From contig CBDCDC010000002.1 in the NCBI GenBank assembly GCA_965215195.1, positions 3,808,001-3,872,000 of the forward strand: a DNA stretch of 64,000 nt, read 5' to 3'. This stretch comes from Candidatus Latescibacterota bacterium. GTDB taxonomy: Bacteria; Latescibacterota; UBA2968; UBA8231. A model generated the notes under the pieces. That model was not told the DNA's origin, searched no databases, and was given only the letters and a program-made list of their open reading frames with translations. Positions 553 to 56,086 of this stretch are shown here, piece after piece. The translations under genes and the position numbers were made by a program. Numbering within the stretch: the stretch's first letter is position 1; each line of letters begins with the position of its first letter.

Positions 553-571
553 TTTCGCATCCTTCCTGCCG

Positions 572-1675: not shown

Positions 1676-1772
1676 GGTTGTACCTCGAAAAATGAAGTTC
1701 GCTAACGACAAGTAATATATATAATAATCATACACATAGTTGCAAGTATTGCACGGCAGGTGCCCAGTCCCG

Positions 1773-2078: not shown

Positions 2079-2083
2079 TGGGG

Positions 2084-2842: not shown

Positions 2843-2850
2843 TGCCCTAA

Positions 2851-2982
2851 GAAGCGGTCTGAAAATTCCGGGTATCGTCCCTTGTATGAGGATCGAGGGC
2901 GTCTCGCCCTCGCAAAACGCTCCCTCCGAGGGCCTCTCAACCGCTGCTCAACGCGGTTCGCCGAGGGTTTGCAGACTGCTTC
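2851..2982. mobile_element. 132-bp MITE with IS5/IS1031-like ends
   Basis: Terminal inverted repeats GAAGCGGTCTGAAAA and reverse complement GAAGCAGTCTGCAAA (13/15). Flanked by TAA at 2848-2850 and 2983-2985. Internal hairpin GAGGGCGTCTCGCCCTC. Confidence 0.75.
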
Positions 2983-4734: not shown

Positions 4735-4852
4735 CAGGGCCGCAGGGTTAGCTTGTGGGCGAGCGAGGGGTCGTCGCCAGCAGGAGCCAGCGGCGAGCTT
4801 CGTCGACGAGCGCGGGGTCGTTCATAGCTTTTGCAAACGGGCGTCCCGCCAT

Positions 4853-6372: not shown

Positions 6373-7299
6373 TTAACCTCGGGGGTGGTAGGTCTTGTGG
6401 ATCTCTTTGAGGTAGCTGAGGTCGAGGTGCGTGTAGATCTGGGTGGTGGAGATGTCGGCGTGGCCCAACAGCTCCTGCACTACGCGGAGATTGGCACCGC
6501 CTTCTAACAGATGCGTGGCAAAGGAATGGCGCAGGGTGTGGGGGCTAATTTCCTTGCCGATGCGCGCTTTGTCGCCGGCGATTTTGATGATCTTCCACAC
6601 GCTCATCCGCGACAGCGGGCCGCCTTGGGCGTTGAGAAAGACGTGGTCGCTCGAGTCGGGACGAGCGAGGTGGGGGCGGCCTTGGCGCAGGTAGCGTTTG
6701 AGCATGCGGACGTCTTTGGCTGCGATGGGCACGATGCGCTCGCGCCGGCCGCGGACGTGGACGAGACCCCGCTCTAGCAGCAAGGCTGTCTGTTGCAGGG
6801 CGGTCAGCTCGGAGACGCGGATGCCGGTGGCGTAGAGCACGGCGAGGATGGCCCGGTCGCGCTGGCCCAGCGGCTCGTCCGGGTCGGGCGCAGCAAGCAG
6901 GGCGGCGATGTCCTCAACCGAGAGTACGTCGGGCAGGCGGCGCTCCAGTTTGGGCGGGTCGAGGAGTTCGGCCGGGTTGTGGGTCGTTGCGCCTTGGACC
7001 AGCAAATACTGGTGGAAGCGCTTTATCGAGGTGAGGTTGCGGGCCATGGTGGAAGGGGTGAGGCCGGCGTCGCGCAGTGAGTGGAGCAAATGGGCGATGT
7101 GCTGGTGTTGGACAGCTTCTAGGTGCTCAATGTCTTGGGCGGCCAGGTGGTGCAGATAGCGGTGGAGGTCGCGGCGATAGGCGTCGAGGGTATTGGCCGC
7201 TAGCCCATTGTCGCGCTCCATGGCCTTGAGGAAGCGCTCGCAGGGGATGGACAGGGCCGCTGGCAGCGGGCGCTCAGGAGTGAATTTCGGGCGGGCCAT
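6373..7299 (-). CDS. xerD: Site-specific tyrosine recombinase XerD
   Basis: NTLDAYRRDL, TGIRVSEL, HTLRHSFATHLL, LGHADISTTQIY, YHPR. Start set at MARPKF (7299). Confidence 0.85.
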   Translation of the reverse strand: MARPKFTPERPLPAALSIPCERFLKAMERDNGLAANTLDAYRRDLHRYLHHLAAQDIEHLEAVQHQHIAHLLHSLRDAGLTPSTMARNLTSIKRFHQYLLVQGATTHNPAELLDPPKLERRLPDVLSVEDIAALLAAPDPDEPLGQRDRAILAVLYATGIRVSELTALQQTALLLERGLVHVRGRRERIVPIAAKDVRMLKRYLRQGRPHLARPDSSDHVFLNAQGGPLSRMSVWKIIKIAGDKARIGKEISPHTLRHSFATHLLEGGANLRVVQELLGHADISTTQIYTHLDLSYLKEIHKTYHPRG

Positions 7300-25913: not shown

Positions 25914-26825
25914 ATGTCAGCAGCACCGGGGCAAACGCAAATTGGCTTTATCGGCTTGGGGATCATGGGTGCGCCCATGGCCAAGAACCTGCTCGCGGCC
26001 GGCTATCGGCTCAACGTGTACAACCGCAGCGACCGGCCGCGCGTCGACGAGGTCGTCGCGGCCGGTGGCGTGCGCGTCGGCTCGCCCAAGGCGGCGGCGA
26101 CAGGTGCGGACGTCGTCATCAGCATCGTCACGGACACGCCCGATATGGAGGCCGTGCTCGTGGGCGAGGAGGGCGCGATTCACGGGGCCAAAGCGGGCGC
26201 GGTCGTCATCGATATGAGCACGGTGTCGCCCAAAGTCACCCGCGCAGTGGCGGCCGCCTTGCAGGAGCGGGGCGTGGCCATGCTCGACGCGCCCGTCAGC
26301 GGCGGGGATGTGGGCGCGATCAACGGCACCCTGTCGATCATGGTCGGCGGCGACGAGGCTGTCTTCGACCAGTGCCGGCCGGTCTTTGAGGCCATGGGCA
26401 CCAACATCAACTTGATTGGCCCCAACGGCGCGGGCCAGACCACCAAGCTCTGCAACCAGATCGCAGTTTCGGTCAACAACATGGCCATGGCCGAGGCCCT
26501 GATGCTGGCGGCGACCTCGGACTTGGACGTGCAAAAGGTCATTGACGCCATCAGCGGCGGGGCGGCTGGCTCTTGGCAGTTGAGCAACTTAGGCCCGCGC
26601 ATTGCCGCTGGCGATTTTGACCCGGGCTTTATGGTCTATTTGCAGCAAAAGGACCTGCGCTTGGTCTTGCAGGCGGCCAACGACGTCAAGCTGGCCCTGC
26701 CGGCCGTGAGCATCGCCCACCAGTTCTTCAACATCGTCGAGCGCGCGGGTTGCGCCGAAGAGGGGACTCAGGCGCTGATCAAAGCCTATGAGGCCCAGGC
26801 CGGCAAAGAGGCGCGGGCCAAGTAG
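25914..26825 (+). CDS. Beta-hydroxyacid dehydrogenase (2-hydroxy-3-oxopropionate reductase-like)
   Basis: GFIGLGIMG, LDAPVSGG, K.CNQ, KDL. Confidence 0.88.
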   Translation: MSAAPGQTQIGFIGLGIMGAPMAKNLLAAGYRLNVYNRSDRPRVDEVVAAGGVRVGSPKAAATGADVVISIVTDTPDMEAVLVGEEGAIHGAKAGAVVIDMSTVSPKVTRAVAAALQERGVAMLDAPVSGGDVGAINGTLSIMVGGDEAVFDQCRPVFEAMGTNINLIGPNGAGQTTKLCNQIAVSVNNMAMAEALMLAATSDLDVQKVIDAISGGAAGSWQLSNLGPRIAAGDFDPGFMVYLQQKDLRLVLQAANDVKLALPAVSIAHQFFNIVERAGCAEEGTQALIKAYEAQAGKEARAK

Positions 26826-26832
26826 GCCATCG

Positions 26833-27624
26833 GTGCAACTCGCATTAAAAAAGGCCGGAGTCCTGCTGCGCGATCAGGATTTGGATTATCCGGTTGCCGA
26901 GGTGCGCGAGCTATTTGCCCCGCATGGGATCGCAGTGCGCTTTATCGAGGGGGACGAGCGCCCGGACGACCTAGACTTGGTAATCGCGCTCGGAGGCGAC
27001 GGCACAGTGCTGCGCGCCTTTGCGCGTTTCCCCCAGCGGCCAGTGCTGGCGATCAATTTCGGCACCGTCGGCTTCTTGACCGCTGGGGACCGCAAGGATT
27101 TGGCGCGCATCGTCCAGCTCTTAGTCGATGGCCAGTACTTTGTCAGCGAGCGCTTGGTGCTCTCTTGCCGCTATCCCGGCGGCGAGAGTCTGGCCTTCAA
27201 CGAGGTGACCTTGCGGGCGCACCACAAAATGCTCTCCACGGACGTCTTCGTCGACGACGCCAAAATTCGCACTATCCGCGGCGACGGCGTGGTAGTTGGC
27301 ACGCCAACGGGCAGCACCGGGCTGTTGCTATCTATGGGTGCGCCGCTGGTCATGCCGGAAGTGCGCTGCATGTTGCTCGACGGCATCAACGAATACAACT
27401 TCACATCGCGGACCTTGATCCTGCCGGCCGAGAAGCGGGTGCGGTTGCGCGTCAGCCCCGGGATTTTGGACAGCCATGTGGTGCTCATTGTCGATGGCCG
27501 CGAGATATGCAGTTTAGCCCCCGAGCAGGAGGTGTACGTCGGCCAAGCCGCACACACGGCGCGGCTGATCTACTTAGACGATAAGTACTTTTTTCACAAC
27601 TTGTCGGAGAAACTTTCTTGGTAG
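26833..27624 (+). CDS. nadK: NAD(+) kinase
   Basis: GGDGT, G.VGFL, FNE, GDG..V.TPTGST. Confidence 0.85.
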   Translation: MQLALKKAGVLLRDQDLDYPVAEVRELFAPHGIAVRFIEGDERPDDLDLVIALGGDGTVLRAFARFPQRPVLAINFGTVGFLTAGDRKDLARIVQLLVDGQYFVSERLVLSCRYPGGESLAFNEVTLRAHHKMLSTDVFVDDAKIRTIRGDGVVVGTPTGSTGLLLSMGAPLVMPEVRCMLLDGINEYNFTSRTLILPAEKRVRLRVSPGILDSHVVLIVDGREICSLAPEQEVYVGQAAHTARLIYLDDKYFFHNLSEKLSW

Positions 27625-27625
27625 A
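27610..27625 (+). repeat. Left copy of the 16-bp direct repeat bounding the islet (3' end of nadK)
   Basis: AAACTTTCTTGGTAGA, identical at 32752-32767. Confidence 0.85.
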
Positions 27626-28211
27626 TTATGTTCCAAGCCGTATATTGGCGGGCAATCGAGTCGAATTCAGTATCGTTTCAAGTGACGACGGCATAGAGGA
27701 GGAAAAAGATGACCGATATCGATTCTGAACAGCATGAAGTCGAGGAAACTGGAGCAAGGGCGTGGGATCGGATCATGGGGGCATCGTTGGCACTTCCTGG
27801 GACAAAAGTTGACCGCAACAGCTTTCTTTATTCTCAACTCCATAATCATTGCGATGAGACGCAGGTTAGGAAGGCAATTGAAGACAGGCCTGCTAATGCT
27901 GGAATACCATCCAATCTGATTGATAGGTTGGCTGATGCCTGCATTAAGTCGCATGTTCGCAAAGCTTCTGCGATTTCATTTGGGACGGGCTTGCCGGGTG
28001 GTTGGGCGATGGCGGCCACAATTCCCGCCGACCTAGCTCAATTCTATTGGCACGCAATCGTCTTATCCCAGAAGTTGGCGCACTTATATGGCTGGCCAGA
28101 CTTACTGGAGGAAGACGAGGCTGACGAAGAGACTAAGGCGAGGATTACGCTACTCATCGGAGCGATGATGGGTGCTGAGGGAGTTAACAAAGTAATAAGC
28201 GAGGTGGCTAA

Positions 28212-29154
28212 GAGCCTATACGGAAATCATGTCAACCGTTCGACGATTTGAAAAATGATAAGCACCGAAGCGACCTGAATGAATGCTTCGTAATGGGTAC
28301 TCTTTTTCTCCCATCGGACCAACAGACGACGGAATCGATTATGCCAAGCATGGGTTCGTTCAACCACCCATCGACGAGCCGGATGTTTCTTTTGCGCGGG
28401 TATAGAGGCCTTGTCGGCTTGACTTTTCGCCAAGTGTAGGTGATAGTCGCGTTCCTCGACTCCTTCAATAACCTCGGCGTAGTCATAGCCTTTGTCCAGA
28501 CACAGATGGTGCAGCCGATAGACGACTTTCTTGGGTCTTTCCACGACGAGGCCATCCAACGTCGCCAGTGCTACCGTTTTGTCATGCGTATTGGCTGCGG
28601 TTACTTCCACGGCCAGCGGTGCGCCTCGCTGGTCGGTCAACACCGACCGTTTAGTGCCCTTTTTACCCCGATCGACCGGCGACGGACCGGTCGCTTCGCC
28701 GCCCAACGGCGCTTTGGTGATCACCCCATCGAGGGCTTGCCATTTCCAAGCAATGCCCACTTGCTTATCATAGTAGTGTAGCAGCGTCTGCCAAGCTCGG
28801 AGAAACACGCCTTGTTTCACCCACTGGCGGAACCGACCGTGGACGGTCGAGCCGGGTGCATAGGCTGCCCGCGGAATGGCCTGCCATTGGCAGCCGCTGC
28901 GCAACACAAAGATCATGGCGTCAAAAAGGACACGGTGGGGTGTGGGCGGACGTCCGACGGTGCCGGGTTGTTTTTCCGGACCCAGAATCGGGGCGATTAG
29001 ATTCCACAAGGCATCCGGGGTATGCCAGATCGTGTCCGGCGAATCGGTCTTGGTGGCCATGGCTTTCTTCCTCTTGGTTGAGGGTCAAATGGTACGGAAA
29101 GCGTAGGTCGCCAAGACCTTTGTATCAACAAAAAATCAATTTTCGTATAGGCTC
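28212..29154 (-). mobile_element. IS5-family insertion sequence (IS1031-like), 943 bp
   Basis: Inverted repeats GAGCCTATACGGAAAT / GAGCCTATACGAAAAT (15/16); TAA duplication at 28209-28211 and 29155-29157. Confidence 0.92.
28227..29060 (-). CDS. IS5-family transposase
   Basis: GCQW..IP, ALDG, DRGK.G.K, AN.HD, DKGYD, RWVVERT..W...FRRL..RWE. Confidence 0.93.
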   Translation of the reverse strand: MATKTDSPDTIWHTPDALWNLIAPILGPEKQPGTVGRPPTPHRVLFDAMIFVLRSGCQWQAIPRAAYAPGSTVHGRFRQWVKQGVFLRAWQTLLHYYDKQVGIAWKWQALDGVITKAPLGGEATGPSPVDRGKKGTKRSVLTDQRGAPLAVEVTAANTHDKTVALATLDGLVVERPKKVVYRLHHLCLDKGYDYAEVIEGVEERDYHLHLAKSQADKASIPAQKKHPARRWVVERTHAWHNRFRRLLVRWEKKSTHYEAFIQVASVLIIFQIVERLT

Positions 29155-29499
29155 TAAGCGATTTGCCAGCCAAACTGTGCGCCGTCTTCCGAGGCAGGCG
29201 CTCACTAAGACTATGTACTATCCGCTAATCAAACAGATTGGCAAATGGATTGGAATTAACGTCACCAAAAACACCTTTGCGCGTAGCGTGTCAAAAGTCG
29301 TGCCAATTATTGGCGGACTTATTTCCGCTGGCGTGACTGCGGCAATGATGAAACCTATGGCCAAGCGACTGAAGAATCACCTAAGAGAGTTGCGATTAGC
29401 ACATCCTGACGGTCATAACAGGTGAGAAGGGTGAGTTACACCCCATCGGTAAAGTCTGACTGAGGCCAGATTTTGGACGTTGACAGGAGAAAAGAATCG

Positions 29500-30447
29500 G
29501 TGAAAGGCGATACTAAGCAGGTTGACAATCAAGCTAGTAGTAACGGACAAGCTGCAAATCCACGCATTATCATCGACGCTAGCTACATTCGCGGCATGAG
29601 CAGAGACGGTGCGCCGCTTCGCACCATGAGTGAACAAGGCGGTCGCATCGTGCTAATCGATACTTTATCGTACGAGCTTATTACCTCCGATCGTAACCAA
29701 TGGCCCGCAGCGAAGAGTAGGCTTACAGCGTGCCAAGACGCTATCGAGGTCTGGGAACATGTCCCCAAGATGTTGAGGGTCGAGATTGAAGAGAACTGTC
29801 CGTACGGCGATCCTTTACGCCCTGAAGAAGAAACTGAACGCTTTCGAGAAATGCTGGCAAACGATCCGCAGGACGAGCCTGATGATTTGGGAGAAATAAT
29901 TGATAAGGTACGTCAAGAACGCGAAGGTCCCAATATACCTGAACTATTTCAGAACTTCGCAAGACTCAATAAAGAGTTTGGTGAGGAGATCACGGCAAAG
30001 ATCAAAGATAAAGCACCCCATGATAAAGAAGTTGTGCAAACTTGTTTCTCCGCAATTAACGATGACCAAAGCATTCGGTCAATGGTAGATATAGTCCGGT
30101 CCTCGGTGAAGAATGACATGGATGTTTCACTAAACCCCCAAGAAGTAAATGAAAAGTGGGTTATATGGCACTTTTCTAAATCGCTTCTCACCGTGCTCTG
30201 CGATTGTCTGCGGCGCGGTGAGAATGCGTTTAAGGAAATATCTAAGAACCATGAGAAACGTTTGAACAACATAACACATGACTTAGACTACTTGATTTTA
30301 TTGGCGTTTGCAGATGCGATTGCATCCCGCGAAACAAAAGGAGAATTGTTTTACTATCGGCGATGGATGTTTGGCGATGCCTTAAAACCGTTGATAAGCT
30401 CTTATAAAAAAGAGCAAATCGTGCATACATTACAGACAGATGTCTAA
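29500..30447 (+). CDS. Hypothetical protein, PIN-like nuclease (copy 1, N-terminal part)
   Basis: IIIDASY, IVLIDTL.YEL, HDLDYL...ADAIASRE. GTG start after AGGAG. Paralogue of 31064-32221. Confidence 0.55.
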   Translation: MKGDTKQVDNQASSNGQAANPRIIIDASYIRGMSRDGAPLRTMSEQGGRIVLIDTLSYELITSDRNQWPAAKSRLTACQDAIEVWEHVPKMLRVEIEENCPYGDPLRPEEETERFREMLANDPQDEPDDLGEIIDKVRQEREGPNIPELFQNFARLNKEFGEEITAKIKDKAPHDKEVVQTCFSAINDDQSIRSMVDIVRSSVKNDMDVSLNPQEVNEKWVIWHFSKSLLTVLCDCLRRGENAFKEISKNHEKRLNNITHDLDYLILLAFADAIASRETKGELFYYRRWMFGDALKPLISSYKKEQIVHTLQTDV

Positions 30448-30730
30448 AATCGCGATTTATGTAACTGAGCAACTAGATGGATATACGTATGCACTTGATC
30501 CTTGGAGCCGAGAGTCGCTAAAGATACAGGATTCGGAAACGCTACCTGCAAGCGTGTTTATCTCGTATGAAACCAAACGGCACTTTGAGTTTTTTAATGG
30601 CCCAATATGGAAACATACTGTAGAGATCCTTACAGGCTATTCGACACCAGAACTTCGGGAATTTGGTGGGGTCGTATTTGTGGATACCACAACACTAGAT
30701 CCTCTATTTGAGCCTTCAGAAGCGGTCTGA
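30440..30730 (+). CDS. Hypothetical protein (copy 1 C-terminal domain, separated by a +1 frameshift)
   Basis: Aligns with the last ~95 aa of 31064-32221 (VTEQLDGY..ALD.WS, EILTGYST.ELREFGGVVFVDTTTLDPLFEP). Confidence 0.6.
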   Translation: MSKIAIYVTEQLDGYTYALDPWSRESLKIQDSETLPASVFISYETKRHFEFFNGPIWKHTVEILTGYSTPELREFGGVVFVDTTTLDPLFEPSEAV

Positions 30731-30822
30731 AAACCCTCAGCGGTTCGGCGGCGCGGCTCGACGGATCACGGCGAAAGGGATTCCCGCTTGTCTTGCTCCG
30801 CAAGGTGAAGCGCGGGAATGAC
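30719..30822. repeat. Solo MITE end plus ATTCCCGC..GCGGGAAT palindrome
   Basis: GAAGCGGTCTGAAAA at 30719 is identical to the MITE end at 2851; palindromic arms at ~30780-30820. Confidence 0.6.
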
Positions 30823-30878
30823 AATGGGGACGACAGGAAGCCACAGACGATAAAGGCTGCGTAACGTCTGAATTATAC

Positions 30879-31002
30879 CTAACTACACGACACCAATAAC
30901 TTGTCGTTGATGGGCGATGAGTCCGGGATCGAGGGCGTCCCGCCCTCGACGAGGGCAAGATGCCCTCAATCCGAGGGTAAGGCCCTACTGTCGTGTACTT
31001 AG
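30879..31002. mobile_element. 124-bp MITE with 9-bp target duplication
   Basis: Inverted repeats CTAACTACACGACA / CTAAGTACACGACA (13/14); GAATTATAC at 30870-30878 and 31003-31011; internal GAGGGCGTCCCGCCCTC hairpin. Confidence 0.8.
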
Positions 31003-31063
31003 GAATTATACAAAAGAAGACATGGCAATGGAAGTTTTGGATGTTGACAGGAGGCAAGAGCGC

Positions 31064-32221
31064 ATGGAAGACAATCAAGCTAGTAGTAACGGACAAGCTG
31101 CAAATCCACGCATTATCATCGACGCTAGCTACATTCGCGGCATGAGCAAAGACGGTGCGCCGCTTCGCACCATGAGTGAACAAGGCGGCCGCATCGTTAT
31201 AACCGATACTTTAGCTCGCGAGCTTTTAACGTCAGATCGCAATCGATGGCCCGCAGAGAAGCAGAAGCTGGTGGAGTGCCGGGACGCTGTTGAGGTCTGG
31301 AAACATGTACCCGAGATGTATAGGATCGAGATTGAAAAGAACCGTCCGTACGGCGATCCTTTACGTCCTAAAAAAACTAAATGTATGCGAAAAATATTAA
31401 AAGAGAATCCAGATTTTCGATCTGACAATTTGGAGACACTAGTTGAGGATTGGAAGCAAGAAGCAGAAAGCGAAAGTAGTCTTGAATTATTGCGGATCCT
31501 CGCAACTTCTCAATCGCCATTTAGCGAAGAAGATATAAAAAAAATTAGAAACAGAGACCCCAATAATAAGGAAGTCGTTCAGGTCTGTTACAATTTGGTC
31601 AACGACCCAGAGAATATTCGGTTAGTAGTGAAGAATGTTGTTCAAAATCCCGATAAAGTAGATCACACTTGGGTCCTATGGCATCTATCTAAATCGCTTC
31701 TTGCAGTGCGTTGTGATAGAGAATGCCGAGGTAAAGATAAGTTTAAGAAAATATCAAATAAAAAATTGGCCAATATAAAACATGACTTAGACTACTTAGT
31801 TTTATTGGCATTCGCAGACGCGATTGCATCTCGCGAAACAAAAGGGGAACAGTTTTACTATCGTCGGTGGATGTTTGGCGATGGATCAAAGCCGTTGATA
31901 CGTTCTTATGAAAAAGAACAAATTATGCACAAATTCAGACAGATGTCCAAAGTCGTGGTTCTCGTAACCGAACAGCTAGATGGATATATATGTGCTCTCG
32001 ATCTGTGGAGCCAAATATCAATAAAGGATTCGGAGAAATTACCTACGAGCGTATTTATCTCTCGTAGAACCAAAGGAGATTTTGAACTGTTTTACGGATC
32101 AATCTGGAGACATATCACAGAAATTCTAACGGGCTATTCGACAACAGAACTTCGGGAATTTGGTGGGGTCGTATTTGTGGATACCACAACACTGGATCCT
32201 CTATTTGAGCCTTCAGTATAA
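31064..32221 (+). CDS. Hypothetical protein, PIN-like domain fused to a ~95-aa C-terminal domain (copy 2, intact)
   Basis: Same motifs as copy 1 in a single ORF; ATG after AGGAGG. Confidence 0.6.
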   Translation: MEDNQASSNGQAANPRIIIDASYIRGMSKDGAPLRTMSEQGGRIVITDTLARELLTSDRNRWPAEKQKLVECRDAVEVWKHVPEMYRIEIEKNRPYGDPLRPKKTKCMRKILKENPDFRSDNLETLVEDWKQEAESESSLELLRILATSQSPFSEEDIKKIRNRDPNNKEVVQVCYNLVNDPENIRLVVKNVVQNPDKVDHTWVLWHLSKSLLAVRCDRECRGKDKFKKISNKKLANIKHDLDYLVLLAFADAIASRETKGEQFYYRRWMFGDGSKPLIRSYEKEQIMHKFRQMSKVVVLVTEQLDGYICALDLWSQISIKDSEKLPTSVFISRRTKGDFELFYGSIWRHITEILTGYSTTELREFGGVVFVDTTTLDPLFEPSV

Positions 32222-32222
32222 T

Positions 32223-32720
32223 ATGCCTAACAGAAGTAATCTGAGTAATCTGTACACTGGTAAGGCTGGTCATTTAGCCGTTATGGCAGAGCTTCTTTTT
32301 CGGGGTTGGAATACAGCCATTCCAGAAGTAGATATAGGCGACGACATTTTCGTCGTCCACGACAGAAAAGGGGACCTGTACCGAGTACAAGTGAAGACGG
32401 CTGTGGCAAAATCGCATCAGTATGGGCACAGCGCACAGTTCAATATTCCGATCTCGCAGCTTCAGAAGGAGATGGATCCAGATATAACATACGTTTTTGC
32501 GGTTCGGCTCCACACTCGGCATCAAAGCCGTTGGGATGATTTTGTCATAATTGACCGGCGGGATATAGAGAAATACCGGGAGGGTGGCATGGGCAGTGAA
32601 AGCAAAGATAGTCTTTTGTTGCGTTTGCGTTTCGAGGAGGAGAGTATTACCTGCAAAGGGTACGACCTATCGCAATACAGAAACGACTGGGATACGCGCT
32701 TTCCCGTTATCGAACACTGA
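32223..32720 (+). CDS. Small PD-(D/E)XK-type nuclease
   Basis: G.AG...V.AEL..RGW....PEVDIGDDI...RVQVKT. Confidence 0.65.
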   Translation: MPNRSNLSNLYTGKAGHLAVMAELLFRGWNTAIPEVDIGDDIFVVHDRKGDLYRVQVKTAVAKSHQYGHSAQFNIPISQLQKEMDPDITYVFAVRLHTRHQSRWDDFVIIDRRDIEKYREGGMGSESKDSLLLRLRFEEESITCKGYDLSQYRNDWDTRFPVIEH

Positions 32721-32751
32721 GAGTACTTCGGATCAAAGTGCTCTGAACGAA

Positions 32752-32767
32752 AAACTTTCTTGGTAGA
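32752..32767 (+). repeat. Right copy of the 16-bp direct repeat (displaced nadK 3' end)
   Basis: Reads ..LNEKLSW* versus nadK ..LSEKLSW*. Confidence 0.85.
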
Positions 32768-43479: not shown

Positions 43480-44187
43480 ATGCAAAAGAAAAAAGAAAAC
43501 TATTTTAATTCTGAAGCAGAAAAAATTTATGGTAAAGTAAAAGGGCTGTATCATCAAACGAGTATAAAAAAGAGGATCGAAGCTCTTTTCCTCGATAACC
43601 TCGGAAAGGTTCTATCAAGGGAACAAATCATCGAAGTAGCTAGGGACCCGATAACCCAAAAAGACCCTGAAAATTGGCATCAGAGATTATCGGAATTACG
43701 AACTGATGATGGATACACAATTCTATCATGGCGGAATCGTGGTGACTTAAAGATCCAAGAATACCTTATGCCTACTTCTAAAAAAAGACCAAAAACAACC
43801 AAGAGAGTTCGTCCACATAATAAAGTATGGTTAGAGATATTGGAGAAAGCGAAATATTCTTGTGAATGGGAGGAAGATGGTATTCGGTGCGAACTTAAAG
43901 ACGGAGATATAGATCCAATCGGCGGAGGCACCGTAACACTCACACCAGATCATAAGGCACCCCATTCAATAAATATGGAAGCTGATCCAAGTGATCCAAA
44001 CCAATGGAGAGTATTATGTGGACGGCATCAGGTTATGAAAAAGAACTTTTGGGATGATAGCACTGGCAAAATCAATGTCTATGCTATTGTTCAAGCCGCA
44101 AGTGAAAGGGAAAAGAGGATTGTCTTTTCTTTTTTAATAGATTATTTTGGGTATCAAATCAATGAGAAAAAATTGGAGGAGAAATAA
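43480..44187 (+). CDS. HNH Type II restriction endonuclease, KpnI-like
   Basis: RIEALFLDNLGKV, PENWHQRLSELRTD.GYTILSWR, TPDH and LCGRHQVMKKN match R.KpnI as recalled; low GC. Confidence 0.8.
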   Translation: MQKKKENYFNSEAEKIYGKVKGLYHQTSIKKRIEALFLDNLGKVLSREQIIEVARDPITQKDPENWHQRLSELRTDDGYTILSWRNRGDLKIQEYLMPTSKKRPKTTKRVRPHNKVWLEILEKAKYSCEWEEDGIRCELKDGDIDPIGGGTVTLTPDHKAPHSINMEADPSDPNQWRVLCGRHQVMKKNFWDDSTGKINVYAIVQAASEREKRIVFSFLIDYFGYQINEKKLEEK

Positions 44188-44189
44188 GC

Positions 44190-44999
44190 ATGACTCAAGC
44201 GACTTTTACAGAATTTGACAAAGTAACACACAATAACGAAAATAAAAAAGGCAGTACTTTAATACTACCACCGATGGACGTATTTGAATCCATCGAATGG
44301 ATTAAATTAGCTGGCATCAAGCCGCGTGTGGCAATGCTCGATCCATGGTATAATAAAGGTTTTGGAGAAATAAGAGATGATTACAATGATTTTGTCGTGT
44401 CCATACTCGAAGCCCTTATTGATATCTCCGACCACGTATTCTTGTGGGGTTTTCCCGAGATTATAGCTCAGTACTTTAATCGCATACCAACTGAGTACAA
44501 ACTCGTCGCATGGCTCACTTGGTATTACAAAAATAACCCATCTGTTATTCGAGGATGGCGCTCAAGTCAAAATACTTGCCTGCACCTTTCTCAAGGAGAT
44601 GCAAAGCTATATCCCGAACACTTTTTGAACGATGTACAAAAAGAAAAGTTAAAGAAGGGAAAGCTGAGATATATGCCTGGCCCAACTAGCGTAATAGAAG
44701 CGTCCTTGTTGGTGGGCTTTGTAGGTCGGAATGAGCAAACAGGTCATCCGTCGCAAAAACCATTAAAGGTATATGAGCCTCTTTTTTTTATGACGACTAA
44801 AGAAGAAGATTTAATTTATGATCCTATGTGTGGCTCTGGTACTACGGGTGCATTTGCCTTAAAACACAATCGGGTCGCAATTTTATCAGACATCAACGAG
44901 GAATATATTTCCATGGTTGAATCGCGGCTCCTAGAAAAGAGAATTCATTCTACCAGTGCATTGCCCTCAACGCTTATAGCTGCGCTGGAGGGGGATTAG
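44190..44999 (+). CDS. Beta-class amino DNA methyltransferase
   Basis: DPWY (motif IV variant) precedes HPSQKP and DPMCGSGTT (motif I). Confidence 0.85.
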   Translation: MTQATFTEFDKVTHNNENKKGSTLILPPMDVFESIEWIKLAGIKPRVAMLDPWYNKGFGEIRDDYNDFVVSILEALIDISDHVFLWGFPEIIAQYFNRIPTEYKLVAWLTWYYKNNPSVIRGWRSSQNTCLHLSQGDAKLYPEHFLNDVQKEKLKKGKLRYMPGPTSVIEASLLVGFVGRNEQTGHPSQKPLKVYEPLFFMTTKEEDLIYDPMCGSGTTGAFALKHNRVAILSDINEEYISMVESRLLEKRIHSTSALPSTLIAALEGD

Positions 45000-53497: not shown

Positions 53498-56086
53498 CTA
53501 GTCGGCTTGCGGACGTTCATCTTGCCTTACTACATCCGCAATTCGAGCATCCTTGATCTGCTGCAAGAGCTGTATGGCATGTTCTCGCTTTTCTTCGATC
53601 TCGCGATGTTTTGCTGCTATTTTCTTTTGGGCTGCAAGGTCGAAGGTCCCGTCTTCGCATATTGGAATATCTACTGATACACGTTTTATGTTGTCTAGTT
53701 TGGCACGGTATGTTCGGTCAAACCCATGCCGGTCTCGCGTCGTGTGCAGTGCATAGTACAAATACTCCGCATCAATGTTGTTATCGACTATTCGCAATAC
53801 TCCGCAATGGTCAGTCGGATGGAATGGAAAATCAGCGGGAATCAGGTGCCAATCAAAGTTTCCATCTATGCCCCAAGTAAGCGATGGCATATCAAATTCA
53901 GTCAACAGGTCTGATTCCTTAATGTGCCCAAAGACATCGCGAACATTTGCACTGATACAAGGAATGCCTTTTTCTATACAATCTTCCTTGACAACTCGCC
54001 TTCCTATCTGCAATGTGAACAAATCCTGATCGCCGAGCAATACCTCCTTGAATTGTGCGTTTACATCCAAGTAATCTATCGGTGTTGCTCCTGACTGCGC
54101 GAGTAAGCGATTAAACTGTTCTATGTCTAATTCTTCCTGCGTCTGAGTTACTTTTAGTTGCTCCAATTCATCCTCTGTCCAATAGCGCTCAACCATCCAA
54201 TGCCGATATGTTGCAAAATCGTTCCACAGGATAATTTTGCAGCGCAAGCATGAAGAAGTGAACGCATTAGGGGAACCTTTGAATTGGTTAAATAAATCTA
54301 CCATTTCGCTCAGATCATTTTTGTCGAGCTCCCAACGATTTGCATCACGCGACTCTCCGATCTCCGATACTAAATAAGTGAAAACAGAAGTAGTCTGCTC
54401 GTCGCGTTCGTCGTACTTGCGTCCAAGCACCAAAATATATGTTTTCTTCGGAGTCGAATAAAAGGTGCGGATCGGTAGAGACACCACGGCGTGAATAAGA
54501 CATTTTTGTTTTGTGTAATTTAAGATGTTTTCTTGGTTCAGCAATCCGTCCGGTACAATGACAAACGCCAATCCGCCCGGCTTCAAACTCTTAATGATCC
54601 ACTGTAGAGCAAGAGCTTCTGTGCCGCGCCCAGCAACGGCATACTCGTCCGCAATACCGGCATCCTCTAAGGCATTTTTTAAGCTGCTGGATCCGCTCGT
54701 AACATACGGCGGATTGGTGAGAATGAGATCGTGCTTGGCATCGTTATCGACGGCAAATGTGCCGAGGTTGGTCCGCAACAGCTCAAACATCGGGTTGACG
54801 ACTTTTCCGGCAAACTCGCCGATAAAATCAGGGGAGTTATATGTCGCGATAAGATCGGAAAAGTAAATAATGGCATTGGCTTTTGCCAGAACAATGGTCC
54901 GTTCGTCTTCTTGCTCGTCGCTTCCCTTATCGTATCCGACAACCGATACCTGTGGGTTTATGATTCCATTGTGCGGCCTGAATTGCGCCATTAGCTGGGG
55001 ACTTTCAATGATTGCCTCCAACAAGAAACCACCCACGCCGCAAAAAGGATCGCACAAAGAGGTCCCGGGCGATAGCGAATTAGCCGTTGACATTTTTACT
55101 ATAGCTTGCACGACATTCCGCGGCGTGAAGTACTGGCCCAAATGACGCAATCCTGCCCCTTGACGGAGAAATGATTCGTAGAGCCTCATTTTGAACTGCC
55201 GCTGAATGTATTTGAAAGACCCGTATTCTCGATCAAAGTCTTGCAGATCGCCTAAAACCTCACAAAATAGCCTAGCTTGGGATAAATTGGGATTGCCTCG
55301 CTCATTGACGAAAATCGTACCGTTTATGATCGTAGTCCCGTCACTCCCTTCTGGGAATAGATTGCGAATAGCTAGGCGGCTTATTTGGGCATAGTTCGTC
55401 AGTGCCGCGACCGGGCCGGATGACTTGCTTAGTTCATACACATGGGCGAAATTGTTGTGCGCTTCAAGTACGGAGAGGTCGGAAAGAAACTTAAAAACAA
55501 ATAGCTCAACCACGTTGTAAAGGCATTTTTCCGGTTCTTTTCCAGTGTTGATCCAGATTTTTTGCCAAATCGTGTGGGCGAGTTGCGAGGGATCAATCAG
55601 CGTCGGGTTGCTCAACTCGTCGTTGGTAGAAGACAGCGAATGATCAGATTGGTCGATTACTTGTTCTAGGCGCTGTAGTTGTTCGGCTGAAATGGTCTCT
55701 TCGATAAGTGCCTTAGCGTTGAATATCGGCAGTGAATCGGATTCTACTCGATTTCCCGTATGTGGGTTAACCCAGAAGGTTTGCCTCCCATCCGTGACGA
55801 TCAGAAGGTTACAAAAATGCCTTGCTACTTCTAGCTCTTGATCGATCGCTTTTTTGATCTGGGACTCGGTAGATAGCTCAACAGAAGTCTTGTATTCAAT
55901 ACACGCTTTTACGGTGCCTCTGCCGAGAGTAATCAACCCATCGGGCCTTTTGTTTTTAATGCGGTGCGGAATCGAGCCAGAGACTATTCCCGCTCTTTTT
56001 AGCTGCGATAACGTAGAAGCCCCAAGACGGTGATACGTATATCGCCCGATAAGGATACTCGAAGTTTGCAAAAGTTCTTCACTCAT
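53498..56086 (-). CDS. Type IIG-like fused restriction-modification protein (nuclease, N6-MTase, TRD)
   Basis: N-terminal RPDG...IEYK, GQYFTPR, DPFCGVGGF, NPPY, C-terminal HsdS-like region; lower GC. Confidence 0.82.
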   Translation of the reverse strand: MSEELLQTSSILIGRYTYHRLGASTLSQLKRAGIVSGSIPHRIKNKRPDGLITLGRGTVKACIEYKTSVELSTESQIKKAIDQELEVARHFCNLLIVTDGRQTFWVNPHTGNRVESDSLPIFNAKALIEETISAEQLQRLEQVIDQSDHSLSSTNDELSNPTLIDPSQLAHTIWQKIWINTGKEPEKCLYNVVELFVFKFLSDLSVLEAHNNFAHVYELSKSSGPVAALTNYAQISRLAIRNLFPEGSDGTTIINGTIFVNERGNPNLSQARLFCEVLGDLQDFDREYGSFKYIQRQFKMRLYESFLRQGAGLRHLGQYFTPRNVVQAIVKMSTANSLSPGTSLCDPFCGVGGFLLEAIIESPQLMAQFRPHNGIINPQVSVVGYDKGSDEQEDERTIVLAKANAIIYFSDLIATYNSPDFIGEFAGKVVNPMFELLRTNLGTFAVDNDAKHDLILTNPPYVTSGSSSLKNALEDAGIADEYAVAGRGTEALALQWIIKSLKPGGLAFVIVPDGLLNQENILNYTKQKCLIHAVVSLPIRTFYSTPKKTYILVLGRKYDERDEQTTSVFTYLVSEIGESRDANRWELDKNDLSEMVDLFNQFKGSPNAFTSSCLRCKIILWNDFATYRHWMVERYWTEDELEQLKVTQTQEELDIEQFNRLLAQSGATPIDYLDVNAQFKEVLLGDQDLFTLQIGRRVVKEDCIEKGIPCISANVRDVFGHIKESDLLTEFDMPSLTWGIDGNFDWHLIPADFPFHPTDHCGVLRIVDNNIDAEYLYYALHTTRDRHGFDRTYRAKLDNIKRVSVDIPICEDGTFDLAAQKKIAAKHREIEEKREHAIQLLQQIKDARIADVVRQDERPQAD

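What the first reader, a model, noticed from the sequence alone, without database searches (positions are those of the whole stretch)
29500..32221. Tandem unknown PIN-like genes with near-identical ends and a divergent middle
Seen: the two paralogues share ~125 bp near the 5' end with only 2 mismatches (from 29524 and 31070) and ~85 bp near the 3' end with a few mismatches, while the central ~200 aa are strongly diverged. Motifs IIID, DT...EL and DLDYL..ADAIASRE resemble a PIN RNase fold with a large helical insert, followed by an unrecognised ~95-aa domain. Inference: conserved flanks with a variable core suggest gene conversion or cassette swapping of a specificity or sensor region in a defence nuclease. 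I do not recognise the family.
Basis: partly seen in the sequence, partly recalled or inferred. Interest (0 to 1): 0.75.

Follow-up and report, generated by a model that had tools for sequence, protein, structure and literature searches.

The report
Tandem PIN-like antitoxin-hub genes
Two neighbouring copies of an undescribed nuclease-like gene, each tied to a small antitoxin-type domain and followed by a second nuclease gene, sit in a mobile low-GC island and exchange pieces with each other; the family looks like a new building block of bacterial toxin-antitoxin or anti-phage modules.

Summary
Two tandem paralogues (29500-30730 and about 31022/31064-32221) share 125 of 127 nt near the 5' end and 79 of 83 nt at the 3' end, while the centre is 40-70% identical. 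Synonymous divergence is about 0 in the end blocks and 0.4-1.0 elsewhere, so the ends were recently homogenised.

The core (about 290 aa) is predicted to be a PIN fold split by a helical insert of about 130 aa. The four canonical acidic positions are kept across 56 distant relatives. No Pfam, NCBIfam, PADLOC or PDB sequence match exists.

New points:
- Copy 1 is two overlapping ORFs and copy 2 is a fusion; they differ by a 1-nt indel.
- The 95-aa C-domain also occurs as a stand-alone small gene directly upstream of a PD-(D/E)xK-like gene, or of YoeB. Copy 2 is followed by that same PD-(D/E)xK-like gene.
- In relatives the core is joined to HicB-N (after HicA), to a MazE-like tail (before MazF), to another tail (before VapC), or to an MNT domain.
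- The family is a mosaic of shuffled segments.
- The island lies at the 3' end of ppnK, between 19-bp direct repeats.

Best reading: a hub-type antitoxin head in a toxin-antitoxin or defence cassette. The function is inferred, not shown.

The parts
27607..27625 (.). Left 19-bp direct repeat. It is the last codons and the stop of the NAD kinase gene (ORF 26788-27624) and marks the left edge of the low-GC island.
   Evidence: repeat family D9, 95% identical to 32749-32767; ORF; GC drop. The same repeat pair flanks the cassette in L008.
27709..28251 (+). N-terminal part of a PDC-S30 (PADLOC candidate defence) gene, cut by an IS element.
   Evidence: PDC-S30 E 5e-58, profile positions 9-169 of 268.
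28207..29159 (-). IS5-family insertion sequence (transposase ORF 28227-29060) with 21-nt terminal inverted repeats.
   Evidence: NF033580 IS5 family transposase, E 2e-68.: DDE_Tnp_1 and DUF4096.: inverted repeat I2, 28207-28227 / 29139-29159.
29150..29425 (+). C-terminal part of the interrupted PDC-S30 gene.
   Evidence: PDC-S30 E 1e-33, profile positions 162-248 of 268. This stretch is 90% identical in DNA to the intact gene's 3' end in L011.
29500..30447 (+). Copy 1, PIN-like core (315 aa from GTG 29500; the ORF is open from 29473).
   Evidence: P0001; D26, E59, E95, D261 and E278 all present.
30440..30730 (+). Copy 1, C-domain as a separate 96-aa ORF that overlaps the core's stop by 8 nt.
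   Evidence: The split form is also seen in P0002 from another genome. A variant lacking 1 nt at 30432, which would be fused, occurs in run X6.
29524..29650 (+). 5' homogenised block of copy 1. Its partner is 31070-31196.
   Evidence: 2 mismatches in 127 nt; pS 0; at most 90.4% identical to the same block in any other locus searched.
30630..30719 (+). 3' homogenised block of copy 1. Its partner is 32127-32216.
   Evidence: 4 mismatches in 90 nt; here copy 1 switches to the L009/copy-2 type (95-97% identical).
30869..31012 (.). Palindromic REP/MITE-like repeat inside the spacer between the copies.
   Evidence: inverted repeat I1; copies at window 2890-2912 and L010 15875-15932; summed contig depth 500-6700 against about 20-40 in the flanks.
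31022..32221 (+). Copy 2, with PIN-like core and C-domain fused in one ORF. The start is ATG 31022, or ATG 31064 as in the 385-aa P0040; the ORF is open from 30917.
31070..31196 (+). 5' homogenised block of copy 2.
32127..32216 (+). 3' homogenised block of copy 2.
   Evidence: It is 98.8% identical to L009.
32223..32720 (+). PD-(D/E)xK-like gene of 165 aa that starts 1 nt after copy 2's stop codon. It is the presumed toxin or effector partner of the C-domain.
   Evidence: PDDEXK_5 E 2.9e-4, 21.3 bits, below the 26.1-bit cut-off; orthologues follow the C-domain in 8 other loci and in 3 stand-alone pairs; invariant E23, D37, D40, D41 and Q56-V-K58; large family, many members annotated PF11645.
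32749..32767 (.). Right 19-bp direct repeat, at the right edge of the island, just before the NAD-dependent epimerase-like gene (32777).

Best explanation
The two genes are paralogous members of an uncatalogued PIN-fold family.

Anatomy. The core of about 290 aa is a PIN domain split by a helical insert of about 130 aa. All four canonical acidic positions are conserved. Each core is coupled to a C-domain of about 95 aa: by overlapping ORFs in copy 1 and by in-frame fusion in copy 2.

The C-domain as a module. In other genomes the C-domain is a free-standing small gene sitting directly upstream of a PD-(D/E)xK-like nuclease gene, or of YoeB. That is the place an antitoxin occupies. The same PD-(D/E)xK-like gene follows copy 2.

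The core across the family. It is found attached to the toxin-neutralising parts of several unrelated antitoxins:
- HicB-N, after a HicA gene.
- A MazE-like tail, before a MazF gene.
- Another tail, before a VapC gene.
- An MNT-type nucleotidyltransferase domain.
In the HicB and MazE cases the core sits where those antitoxins normally carry their DNA-binding domain.

My reading. The core is a 'hub' head of modular antitoxins. The window's unit (head, C-domain, PD-(D/E)xK-like gene) is a toxin-antitoxin-type, possibly abortive-infection, cassette.
- Inferred: the C-domain holds the PD-(D/E)xK nuclease in check.
- Inferred: the head is probably an active Mg-dependent nuclease that regulates the cassette or senses a trigger, and its variable insert sets what it recognises.

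Shown here: the anatomy, the fold prediction, the conserved residues, the gene neighbourhoods, the mosaic history and the homogenised ends.

Origin of the tandem. It most likely arose when two alleles of the same hotspot cassette were brought together. One resembles L011/L008 and carries PDC-S30. The other resembles L009 and carries the spacer and the PD-(D/E)xK gene. Gene conversion then made the ends alike.
For: Fold:
- The AF2 model of copy 2 has pLDDT 85.4 and pTM 0.78.
- In VIA-align against 48,161 chains, 20 of the 50 listed rows are PIN/VapC-type by their titles, including ranks 2-4 and 7-10. They have Z 5.5-7.7 and 104-136 aligned residues, covering most of each 110-170-aa target. The matches span model residues 14-283, so the PIN core is interrupted by the insert.

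Residues. Over 56 members down to 14% identity, D26 and E59 are invariant. E95, W220, D261 and Y264 are at least 90% conserved, and an A-[ST]-x-[DE] motif sits at 275-278.

No catalogued family:
- 0 Pfam, NCBIfam or PADLOC hits for the window's proteins.
- 0 of 88 and 0 of 62 relatives hit any PIN family in Pfam.
- No PDB relative by profile.

C-domain as an antitoxin-position module:
- Stand-alone C-domain plus overlapping PD-(D/E)xK-like gene in L030, L031 and L033.
- C-domain with an extra tail, followed by YoeB (PF06769, E 1.3e-36), in L032.
- 29 free-standing C-domain proteins of 98-166 aa in the protein collection.
- 9 of 12 core-plus-C-domain gene copies in 11 loci are followed at once by the PD-(D/E)xK-like gene. 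The exceptions are window copy 1, the IS-truncated L006, and L010.

Hub behaviour:
- L010 has HicA (PF07927, E 6.5e-24) overlapping the start of a HicB-N + core + C-domain gene.
- 12 of 88 relatives carry PF15919.
- Core + tail is followed by MazF in L017 and L020. The same tail (65% identity over 48 aa) is on a small stand-alone protein upstream of a 70%-identical MazF in L018.
- Core + another tail is followed by VapC in L014.
- Core + NTP_transf_2 in P0142, and core + DUF2934 in 15 of 62 distant relatives.

Accessory and mobile context:
- The island has GC 0.42-0.56 against 0.60-0.67 in the flanks and is flanked by 19-bp direct repeats.
- The family is present in 12 of 30 congeneric species genomes and 1 of 45 from other genera of the family.
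- Neighbours at the same hotspot include PDC-S30 and JukA-like genes.

Exchange:
- pS is about 0 in the end blocks.
- Segment-wise nearest relatives differ along the gene.
- Copy 2 against L009 has pS 0.08 in the C-domain but 0.53-0.70 in the insert. Copy 2 against L005 has 0.19 in the late insert but 0.59 in the C-domain.
- Insert classes 1, 9 and 12 each occur with C-domain classes 2 and 5.
- Copy 1's upstream flank is collinear with L011, L005, L007 and L008. Copy 2's flanks are collinear with L009.
Against: - No experiment or expression data. No listed run holder is RNA.
- Structural Z-scores are all below 8, a range the tool warns can reflect a common arrangement. Foldseek found nothing at E <= 0.001 in the PDB or BFVD.
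- The mapping of the acidic residues to the PIN active site rests on their order along the secondary structure, not on a superposition I could inspect.
- The PD-(D/E)xK assignment of the window's protein is below Pfam's cut-off (21.3 against 26.1 bits), and its profile finds no solved structure.
- The C-domain has no recognised fold or family.
- About 47 family members are core-only with no fused antitoxin part. The head can therefore work without one, which a pure 'antitoxin head' reading does not explain.
- Copy 1 has no PD-(D/E)xK gene of its own.
- pN/pS in the insert stays below 1, so diversifying selection is not demonstrated.
- Family size is small: 119 representatives at E <= 1e-3 among 1.84 billion. 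The fusions listed come from few lineages, mostly one phylum, so they are not many independent events.
Confidence: 0.55

Rival explanations
1. The PIN-like core is itself the toxin, and the C-domain is its own antitoxin, in cis when fused and in trans when split. This would be a VapBC-like pair in toxin-first order. The PD-(D/E)xK-like gene would be a second, independent or co-regulated, effector.
For: - All four PIN acidic positions are conserved, as in active VapC toxins.
- Copy 1 is arranged as a large ORF followed by an overlapping small ORF, as in toxin-first TA operons.
- The split and fused states both occur in nature.
Against: - The C-domain occurs without any core, directly upstream of PD-(D/E)xK-like or YoeB genes. 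Its partner there is the downstream gene.
- About 47 relatives are core-only proteins, with no conserved small partner seen in L015, L016 or L019. That is hard to reconcile with a constitutively toxic core.
- In L017 and L020 the fused tail matches the antitoxin of the downstream MazF, not an inhibitor of the core.
Confidence: 0.2
2. The core is a non-catalytic nucleic-acid-binding or oligomerisation module. It simply replaces the DNA-binding domain of antitoxins and autoregulates the operon. The variable insert would be neutral drift.
For: - The core occupies the position of the DNA-binding domain: C-terminal to HicB-N and N-terminal to the MazE-like tail. The canonical antitoxin layouts are recalled knowledge.
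- A PIN-like domain without catalytic residues, read as structural, is described for PtuZ in passages of PMC11980606.
Against: Here the acidic positions are invariant or nearly so across very distant members. That argues for catalysis or metal binding rather than a purely structural role.
Confidence: 0.12
3. The genes are ordinary housekeeping RNA-processing genes that happened to duplicate. The near-identical ends reflect only strong purifying selection.
For: The N- and C-terminal PIN halves are the best conserved parts family-wide, with mean pairwise identity 0.73 and 0.77 against 0.57 for the insert.
Against: - Synonymous sites are identical only in the two blocks. The equally conserved protein stretch 30283-30343 has pS 0.42-0.49.
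- The family is patchy: 12 of 30 congeners and 1 of 45 genomes from other genera.
- It lies in a low-GC island with an IS element, direct repeats and defence/TA neighbours.
Confidence: 0.03
4. The tandem, or its identical ends, is an assembly artefact that joins two strain variants of a single-copy gene.
For: - No laid contig spans the whole 3.1-kb stretch, and the contigs stop at the repeated blocks.
- Run X6 holds copy 1 and the downstream gene but no copy 2 core, so single-copy strains probably exist.
- The genome bin has an estimated 8.5% contamination.
Against: - Both centres occur at similar depth in two runs covering 30 of 30 bins.
- Contigs run from each copy's unique upstream flank into its 5' block: X1 covers 29300-29553 and X5 covers 30979-31197.
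- Other contigs run from the block into each unique centre: X5 covers 29623-29712 and X4 covers 31082-31213.
- The window lies on a 4.86-Mb contig with flanks syntenic to relatives.
Confidence: 0.04

Closest known systems
Panacea (DUF4065) hub antitoxins, PanA (Kurata 2022 recalled; Ernits et al. 2023, PMC10440598, passages read)
   Same: One globular domain recurs in antitoxin-position proteins. It carries exchangeable toxin-neutralising elements at its N- or C-terminus and is paired with unrelated toxins. The authors suggest that in multidomain forms the globular domain may act as a sensor. The present core shows the same pattern with HicB-N/HicA, tail/MazF, tail/VapC, C-domain/PD-(D/E)xK and MNT.
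   Different: There is no sequence relation: no DUF4065 hit. The fold here is PIN with an intact acidic site, so an enzymatic role is likely. The family is small and nearly confined to Latescibacterota-type MAGs. Nothing has been validated experimentally.
VapC PIN-domain toxins of VapBC type II TA systems
   Same: They are the best structural matches, and the four acidic positions lie in the same order along the fold.
   Different: - The core is about 290 aa, with an insert of about 130 aa between the third strand region and the helix that carries the third acidic residue.
- There is no upstream VapB-like gene.
- No Pfam PIN family is matched.
- The protein sits in the antitoxin position of other TA pairs, not the toxin position.
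PIN-like families with long helical inserts in the Matelska et al. 2017 classification, e.g. the N-terminal region of DUF4935 (PMC5499597, passages read)
   Same: A VapC-like PIN core with conserved acidic residues and a long helical insertion. The function is uncharacterised.
   Different: - DUF4935 is described there with its long insert after strand S2 plus two helices after S3, and as mostly mono-cistronic.
- Here the insert follows the third strand region.
- The genes are fused or coupled to antitoxin parts.
- No member hits PF16289.
PDDEXK_5 (PF11645) endonucleases, for the downstream gene 32223-32720
   Same: Weak but consistent Pfam matches in the window's protein and 10 orthologues (E 7e-5 to 6e-4). 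Many of at least 2417 relatives carry PF11645 in precomputed annotation. E, D and Q-x-K residues are invariant.
   Different: The window's own protein scores below the gathering cut-off. A profile of the subfamily finds no solved structure by sequence. Its pairing with the C-domain is not described in anything I found.
Phd/YefM-YoeB antitoxin-toxin pairs, for the C-domain
   Same: In L032 a C-domain protein with a C-terminal extension lies directly upstream of, and overlaps, a YoeB-family gene. The extension resembles the YoeB-binding tail of YefM-type antitoxins; that resemblance is recalled, not tested.
   Different: No PhdYeFM Pfam hit at E <= 1. The C-domain's fold could not be determined here.

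Membership tests
PIN domain-like superfamily | Three-layer alpha/beta/alpha fold with a parallel sheet, superposable on solved PIN domains. | tested here: met
   Model pLDDT 85.4. In VIA-align, 20 of the 50 listed rows are PIN/VapC-type by title, with Z 5.5-7.7 and 104-136 residues aligned over most of each target. Caveats: every Z is below 8, and Foldseek found nothing at E <= 0.001.
PIN domain-like superfamily | Four conserved acidic residues: after strand 1, in the helix after strand 2, at the start of the helix after strand 3, and after strand 4. | tested here: met
   D26 and E59 are invariant, D261 is at least 90% conserved, and an [ST]-x-[DE] motif lies at 276-278 in 56 members. Their places along the predicted secondary structure fit. 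Spatial clustering was not inspected.
PIN domain-like superfamily | Match to a catalogued PIN-clan sequence family. | tested here: not met
   No PIN family hit for the window's proteins, for 88 relatives or for 62 distant relatives. No PDB hit by profile.
PIN domain-like superfamily | Metal-dependent nuclease activity. | not testable with these tools
   Needs biochemistry.
VapBC type II toxin-antitoxin (VapC toxin) | A compact PIN toxin of about 130 aa, preceded by a small VapB antitoxin gene. | tested here: not met
   The core is about 290 aa with a large insert. Upstream of copy 1 is the PDC-S30 remnant, and upstream of copy 2 is a spacer with a REP-like repeat.
Hub (hyperpromiscuous) antitoxin domains of the Panacea kind | The same globular domain is joined to different neutralising elements and lies next to unrelated toxin families. 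| tested here: met
   HicA, MazF, VapC, PD-(D/E)xK-like and an MNT fusion. These come from few, related genomes.
Hub (hyperpromiscuous) antitoxin domains of the Panacea kind | Homology to DUF4065/Panacea. | tested here: not met
   No such Pfam hit.
Hub (hyperpromiscuous) antitoxin domains of the Panacea kind | Demonstrated neutralisation of the neighbouring toxin. | not testable with these tools
   Needs co-expression assays.
PDDEXK_5 (PF11645), gene 32223-32720 | Pfam match above the gathering score. | tested here: inconclusive
   21.3 bits against a 26.1-bit cut-off for the window's protein. Orthologues score 20.3-23.3 bits. Many relatives carry PF11645 in precomputed annotation.
PDDEXK_5 (PF11645), gene 32223-32720 | A PD-(D/E)xK catalytic motif. 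| tested here: met
   E23, D37, D40, D41 and Q56-V57-K58 are invariant in 12 sequences. Q in place of D/E is a known variant (recalled).
Phd/YefM antitoxins (C-domain) | PF02604 match or the Phd/YefM fold. | tested here: inconclusive
   No Pfam hit. Prediction of the fold of the domain alone failed (and later). The YoeB pairing in L032 is the only link.
PDC-S30 (PADLOC candidate system), 27709-28251 plus 29150-29425 | Match to the PDC-S30 model over an intact gene. | tested here: not met
   The two halves match at E 5e-58 and 1e-33, but the gene is split by an IS5-family element.

The most novel reading that the evidence does not exclude
The PIN-fold core is a new, enzymatically active 'hub' head of modular antitoxins. 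Its hypervariable helical insert would recognise a phage-derived trigger, or choose an RNA substrate, and so control release of whichever toxin the attached neutralising element holds (PD-(D/E)xK, MazF, VapC or HicA). Keeping two heads with different insert alleles in tandem, with ends kept identical by gene conversion, would be a way to widen recognition and to generate new combinations by recombination. This is comparable to specificity-subunit shuffling in restriction systems.
Probability: 0.22. Interest if true: 0.8.

Novelty: new variant of a known kind. Interest (0 to 1): 0.66.

Why it matters
- Only a few domains are known to serve as common platforms for many unrelated toxin-antitoxin pairs. 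Panacea, HTH, ImmA-type proteases and AAA ATPases are the ones named in the passages of PMC10440598 read.
- A PIN nuclease fold in that role, with its catalytic residues kept, would be a new logic: an antitoxin whose regulatory part is itself a nuclease. It would also add an unannotated family to TA and defence catalogues.
- The locus also offers a clean natural example of segmental exchange. Discrete insert and C-domain alleles are recombined between genomes, and conversion tracts lie between tandem copies. This bears on how such modules diversify.
- The claim that the family is undescribed rests on four text searches (and 91 for PDC-S30) and on the absence of Pfam, NCBIfam, PADLOC and PDB matches. 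Subscription journals and unseen supplements may hold more.

Tried and rejected
Fold and sequence searches that found nothing:
- Foldseek of the full model against the PDB and BFVD: nothing at E <= 0.001.
- PDB sequence and profile searches for the core, the C-domain and the PD-(D/E)xK-like protein: nothing meaningful.
- ESM Atlas. For the core, only unnamed clusters at 0.90, with the nearest named cluster a PIN family at 0.82, which is a lead only. For the C-domain, no usable hit.
- Pfam and NCBIfam on the two fused tails and on the C-domain at E <= 10: only chance-level hits.
- hhalign of the C-domain profile against the HicB-N part of the fused relatives: probability 0.6%. The idea that the C-domain is HicB-like was dropped.

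Structure and complex prediction:
- Complex prediction of the PD-(D/E)xK-like protein with the C-domain gave 'no answer' (score 0.00). It counts neither for nor against binding.
- Prediction of the C-domain alone failed twice. The machine then did not answer. The fold of the C-domain, and of the insert alone, remains undetermined.

Collections and earlier notes:
- IMG/VR viral contigs hold no relatives of the core family or of the PD-(D/E)xK-like protein with the patterns used. The distant alignment A5 was unusable for that tool.
- No RNA holder is listed among the sequencing runs.
- Earlier notes of this scan hold nothing for this place or this sequence.

Selection. pN/pS is 0.4-0.9 in the insert and never above 1 in 11 pairwise comparisons.

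Promoters and terminators. The consensus scan showed nothing above shuffled expectation that I would lean on.

The closest relatives P0002 and P0004 both lie on a 1.13-Mb contig and may be a second tandem.

Full report
1. WHAT IS THERE

The finding lies in a 5.1-kb low-GC island (GC 0.42-0.56 against 0.60-0.67 in the flanks). The island sits between the NAD kinase gene (ORF 26788-27624) and a pair of NAD-dependent epimerase-like genes (from 32777). From left to right it holds:
- A PDC-S30 candidate-defence gene (PADLOC E 5e-58 and 1e-33 for its two halves). It is split by an IS5-family element at 28207-29159, which has 21-nt inverted ends.
- Copy 1 of the gene in question: core 29500-30447, and a separate 96-aa ORF at 30440-30730.
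- A spacer of about 330 bp containing a palindromic repeat.
- Copy 2: about 31022/31064-32221, one fused ORF.
- One base after copy 2's stop, a 165-aa PD-(D/E)xK-like gene at 32223-32720.

A 19-bp direct repeat brackets the island at 27607-27625 and 32749-32767. It equals the last codons and the stop of the kinase gene. The same repeat pair brackets the corresponding cassette in locus L008.

- The 5' blocks differ at 2 of 127 nt. The 3' blocks differ at 4 of 83-90 nt.
- Overall the aligned 1179 nt are 74% identical. None of 2000 column shuffles produced a 127-nt window with 125 matches; the best was 114.
- The identity is not due to protein constraint. Synonymous divergence is 0.00 and 0.06 in the two blocks. 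It is 0.42-0.49 in a stretch that is 95% identical in protein (30283-30343) and 0.4-1.0 elsewhere.
- Third codon positions match at 41 of 42 and 25 of 27 codons in the blocks, against 192 of 324 outside them.
- The same 5' block is only 77-90% identical to that of homologues in any other locus searched. The extra identity is therefore specific to the two copies in this genome.
- At the 3' end copy 1 switches from an L004-L008-like sequence (85-88%) to the L009/copy-2 type (97%) at about 30648. Copy 2's whole C-domain is L009-like (93-100%). Copy 2, or an L009-type allele, was therefore the donor of that tract.
- The two copies differ in structure. One extra base near 30432 puts copy 1's C-domain in another frame, with an ATG overlapping the core's stop by 8 nt.
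- The split form is not a one-off error. P0002 from another genome ends the same way. Two runs show no indel there at depths of about 40. A run from another study holds both states (a contig lacking the base at depth 3.7 of 6.8).

3. IS THE ASSEMBLY SOUND?

Contigs of four public runs from three studies were laid on 29300-32400.
- Two runs of one study cover all 30 bins, with both divergent centres at similar depth.
- A second study covers 22 of 30 bins, including 31265-32174 in one contig without differences.
- A third study covers 17 of 30 bins. It holds copy 1 and the downstream gene but no copy 2 core.
- Contigs enter each 5' block from each copy's own upstream flank and leave it into each own centre. 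None spans the tandem.
- The best holders may be the source sample and are then not independent.
- Nothing indicates a chimera, but only a long read would prove the tandem.

4. WHAT THE CORE IS

Sequence searches:
- The core has no match in Pfam, NCBIfam or PADLOC.
- None of 88 relatives or 62 more distant relatives hits a PIN family.
- A family profile finds no solved structure by sequence.

Structure prediction:
- An AlphaFold2 model of copy 2, built on 88 sequences, is confident (pLDDT 85.4, pTM 0.78).
- Foldseek finds nothing significant in the PDB or BFVD.
- An exhaustive VIA-align run against 48,161 chains is led by PIN domains. 20 of the 50 listed rows are PIN/VapC-type by their titles (VapC2, VapC21, Utp24, VapC15, EST1A/SMG6, VapC11, Nmd4, Nob1, SMG5 and others).
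- Those rows have Z 5.5-7.7 and 104-136 aligned residues, covering most of each target. They span model residues 14-283.
- Lower ranks (28 and below) include class-I tRNA-synthetase-like Rossmann folds.
- The Z values are under the level at which the tool advises caution.

Residue pattern, which strengthens the assignment:
- In an alignment of 56 members down to 14% identity, D26 and E59 are invariant (copy 1 numbering).
- E95, W220, D261 and Y264 are at least 90% conserved, and an A-[ST]-x-[DE] motif occupies 275-278.
- Along the predicted secondary structure these residues lie after strand 1, in the helix after strand 2, at the start of the helix that follows the insert, and after the fourth strand. 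This is the order of the four PIN acidic residues (PIN layout as described in PMC5499597, passages read).
- Both window copies keep all of them.

The insert of about 130 aa (model residues about 100-232) is all-helical. It is the least conserved part of the family: mean pairwise identity 0.57, against 0.73 and 0.77 for the PIN halves.

5. WHAT THE C-DOMAIN AND THE DOWNSTREAM GENE ARE

The C-domain has no family or recognisable fold. Modelling it alone failed for technical reasons. Its genomic behaviour is informative:
- In three genomes of another family of the same class it is a free-standing gene of about 100 aa. That gene is immediately followed by a gene 57-63% identical to the window's PD-(D/E)xK-like gene, from 8 nt of overlap to 7 nt of gap. 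No PIN-like core is present (L030, L031, L033).
- In L032 a C-domain protein with a 35-aa C-terminal extension overlaps the start of a YoeB-family toxin gene (PF06769, E 1.3e-36).
- The protein collection holds 29 free-standing C-domain proteins of 98-166 aa.
- Of 12 core-plus-C-domain gene copies in 11 loci, 9 are directly followed by the PD-(D/E)xK-like gene: window copy 2, L004, L005, L007, L008, L009, L011, L012 and L013.
- The exceptions are window copy 1, L006 (its C-domain is truncated by a transposase gene near the contig end) and L010. L021-L027 are the same places fetched a second time.

The downstream protein:
- It matches PDDEXK_5 weakly but consistently (E 7e-5 to 6e-4).
- It has invariant E23, D37, D40, D41 and Q56-V-K58.
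- It belongs to a large family of at least 2417 proteins, many annotated PF11645.

The C-domain therefore occupies the place of an antitoxin for this nuclease-like gene. That it neutralises the nuclease is inference.

6. THE CORE AS A RECURRING HEAD ON ANTITOXIN PARTS

Relatives fall into architecture classes. Among the 120 proteins listed, out of 131 found, these are:
- Core only, about 283-312 aa. 47 of these were used for alignment A4.
- Core + C-domain, 385-420 aa.
- HicB-N + core + C-domain, 481-495 aa. 12 of 88 carry PF15919.
- Core + tail 1, at least 7 proteins.
- Core + tail 2, at least 18 proteins.

The neighbours of these classes:
- In L010 a HicA toxin gene (PF07927, E 6.5e-24) overlaps the start of the HicB-N + core + C-domain gene.
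- In L017 and L020 core + tail 2 is followed by an overlapping MazF gene (PF02452, E 7e-25; 94.7% identical between the two loci).
- In L018 the same tail (65% identity over 48 aa) is carried by a small stand-alone protein upstream of a 70%-identical MazF. The tail therefore belongs to the MazF antitoxin.
- In L014 core + tail 1 is followed by an overlapping VapC gene (PF01850, E 6e-13).

A profile search of 1.84 billion representatives finds only 119 family members at E <= 1e-3. Of 62 of these scanned, one carries a C-terminal MNT-type nucleotidyltransferase domain and 15 carry a short DUF2934 motif.

In the HicB and MazE cases the core stands where those antitoxins normally have their DNA-binding domain: C-terminal to HicB-N and N-terminal to the MazE tail. 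The canonical layouts are recalled knowledge. This is the pattern described for modular 'linear neutralisation' antitoxins built on the Panacea domain (PMC10440598, passages read). Here it occurs with an unrelated, PIN-fold, apparently catalytic domain.

7. CONTEXT AND MOBILITY

- The family is accessory. With the copy 1 core as query it was found in 12 of 30 other species genomes of the genus and in 1 of 45 genomes from other genera of the family. Only this genome holds a tandem pair.
- The 17 loci found in the species-representative collection come from MAGs, 16 labelled Latescibacterota and one labelled Gemmatimonadetes.
- In at least ten of them the gene sits at the same hotspot downstream of the NAD kinase gene. 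The companions vary: PDC-S30 (L005, L007, L008, L011), a small GTPase + 305-aa + JukA-like trio (L006, L012, L015), DUF4160 pairs, and HicAB.
- No relatives were found in IMG/VR with the patterns used.

8. MOSAIC HISTORY

Nearest relatives change along the genes:
- Copy 2 is L009/L013-like at its start.
- It is L004/L005/L007-like through the centre (83-95%).
- It is L009-like through the C-domain (93-100%).

Segment-wise synonymous divergence confirms different ages:
- Copy 2 against L009: 0.08 in the C-domain, 0.53-0.70 in the insert.
- Copy 2 against L005: 0.19 in the late insert and C-terminal PIN half, 0.59 in the C-domain.

Among 41 full-length relatives clustered at 75% identity per segment, insert classes 1, 9 and 12 each occur with both C-domain classes 2 and 5. 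Inserts and C-domains are therefore reassorted.

pN/pS in the insert (0.4-0.9) is higher than in the C-terminal PIN half (0.12-0.42) but never exceeds 1. Relaxed or diversifying selection cannot be told apart.

Copy 1's upstream flank is collinear with loci where PDC-S30 precedes the gene (90% identity over 364 nt to L011). Copy 2's upstream spacer and downstream gene are collinear with L009 (79-90% and 89.5%). The tandem is therefore best read as two alleles of the same cassette joined at one site, followed by conversion of the ends. The exact recombination path is inference.

9. HOW IT MOST LIKELY WORKS

I commit to the following, at about 0.55 overall. The unit head, C-domain and PD-(D/E)xK-like gene is a toxin-antitoxin-type, possibly abortive-infection, cassette.
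- The C-domain restrains the nuclease (inferred from position only).
- The PIN-like head is the common regulatory or sensing part of a family of modular antitoxins.
- Because its acidic site is conserved, the head probably acts as a metal-dependent nuclease, for example on the cassette's own or an invader's RNA.
- The insert determines specificity.

Rivals:
- The head is itself the toxin and the C-domain its antidote (0.2).
- The head is a non-catalytic replacement of the DNA-binding domain (0.12).
- It is a housekeeping gene (0.03).
- It is an assembly artefact (0.04).

Main weaknesses of the favoured reading: many relatives are core-only, copy 1 lacks its own downstream toxin, all structural scores are moderate, and there are no functional data.

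10. NOVELTY

PIN folds, modular antitoxins and gene conversion between tandem paralogues are all known. What is new:
- The family is uncatalogued.
- A PIN fold with intact catalytic positions serves as the recurring head of antitoxin-position proteins for at least four toxin types.
- The C-domain/PD-(D/E)xK pair has not been described.

I found no description of this in four text searches or in the passages read. Supplements and subscription journals were not seen. I rate it a new variant of a known kind.

Noticed in passing
window 27607-27625 and 32749-32767; L008 9035 and 11701: A 19-bp direct repeat, equal to the 3' end of the NAD kinase gene, brackets the whole island here. It also brackets the equivalent PDC-S30 + PIN-like + PD-(D/E)xK cassette in L008. 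This looks like an att-type duplication, yet the island holds no integrase.
   Followed up: partly
window 28207-29159: An IS5-family element with 21-nt inverted ends interrupts the PDC-S30 candidate defence gene. A related transposase truncates the C-domain in L006 (11092-11898).
   Followed up: partly
window 30860-31067 (arms 30869-30892 / 30989-31012); also window 2890-2912 and L010 15875-15932: A palindromic REP/MITE-like repeat lies in the spacer between the copies. Its summed contig depth in public runs is 500-6700, against about 20-40 for the flanks, and contigs show many alternative joins there.
   Followed up: partly
window 30432: In a run from another study (X6), one of two contigs lacks this base, which would fuse copy 1's two ORFs. 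The split or fused state seems polymorphic in nature.
   Followed up: partly
window 43480-44999: A low-GC islet (GC 0.40-0.50) holds a 235-aa ORF of no known family plus an N6_N4 DNA methylase (PF01555, E 5e-17). It sits between glutamine-amidotransferase-type and GXGXG-type genes and is probably a small restriction-modification pair.
   Followed up: partly
window 53498-56086 (- strand): A low-GC 862-aa ORF combines an N-6 DNA methylase domain with a type I specificity-like domain. It looks like a fused restriction-modification protein.
   Followed up: partly
L032 222-881 and 1525-2180: An McrBC-like ORF ends in nearly the same C-terminal tail as the neighbouring C-domain protein that precedes YoeB. 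The tail seems to have been copied onto an unrelated gene.
   Followed up: no
L009 11859-12373 and L010 9507-9707: L009 carries a stand-alone HicA-HicB pair just downstream of its PD-(D/E)xK-like gene. Its HicA is 94% identical to the HicA that precedes the HicB-N + core fusion in L010. This hints that the fusion arose by rearrangement within this hotspot.
   Followed up: partly
L006 7132-9878, L012 7068-9901, L015 7136-9931: At the same hotspot, three genomes carry a trio directly upstream of the PIN-like gene: a small Ras-like GTPase, a 305-310-aa protein of no known family, and a JukA-like protein (PADLOC E about 1e-22).
   Followed up: no
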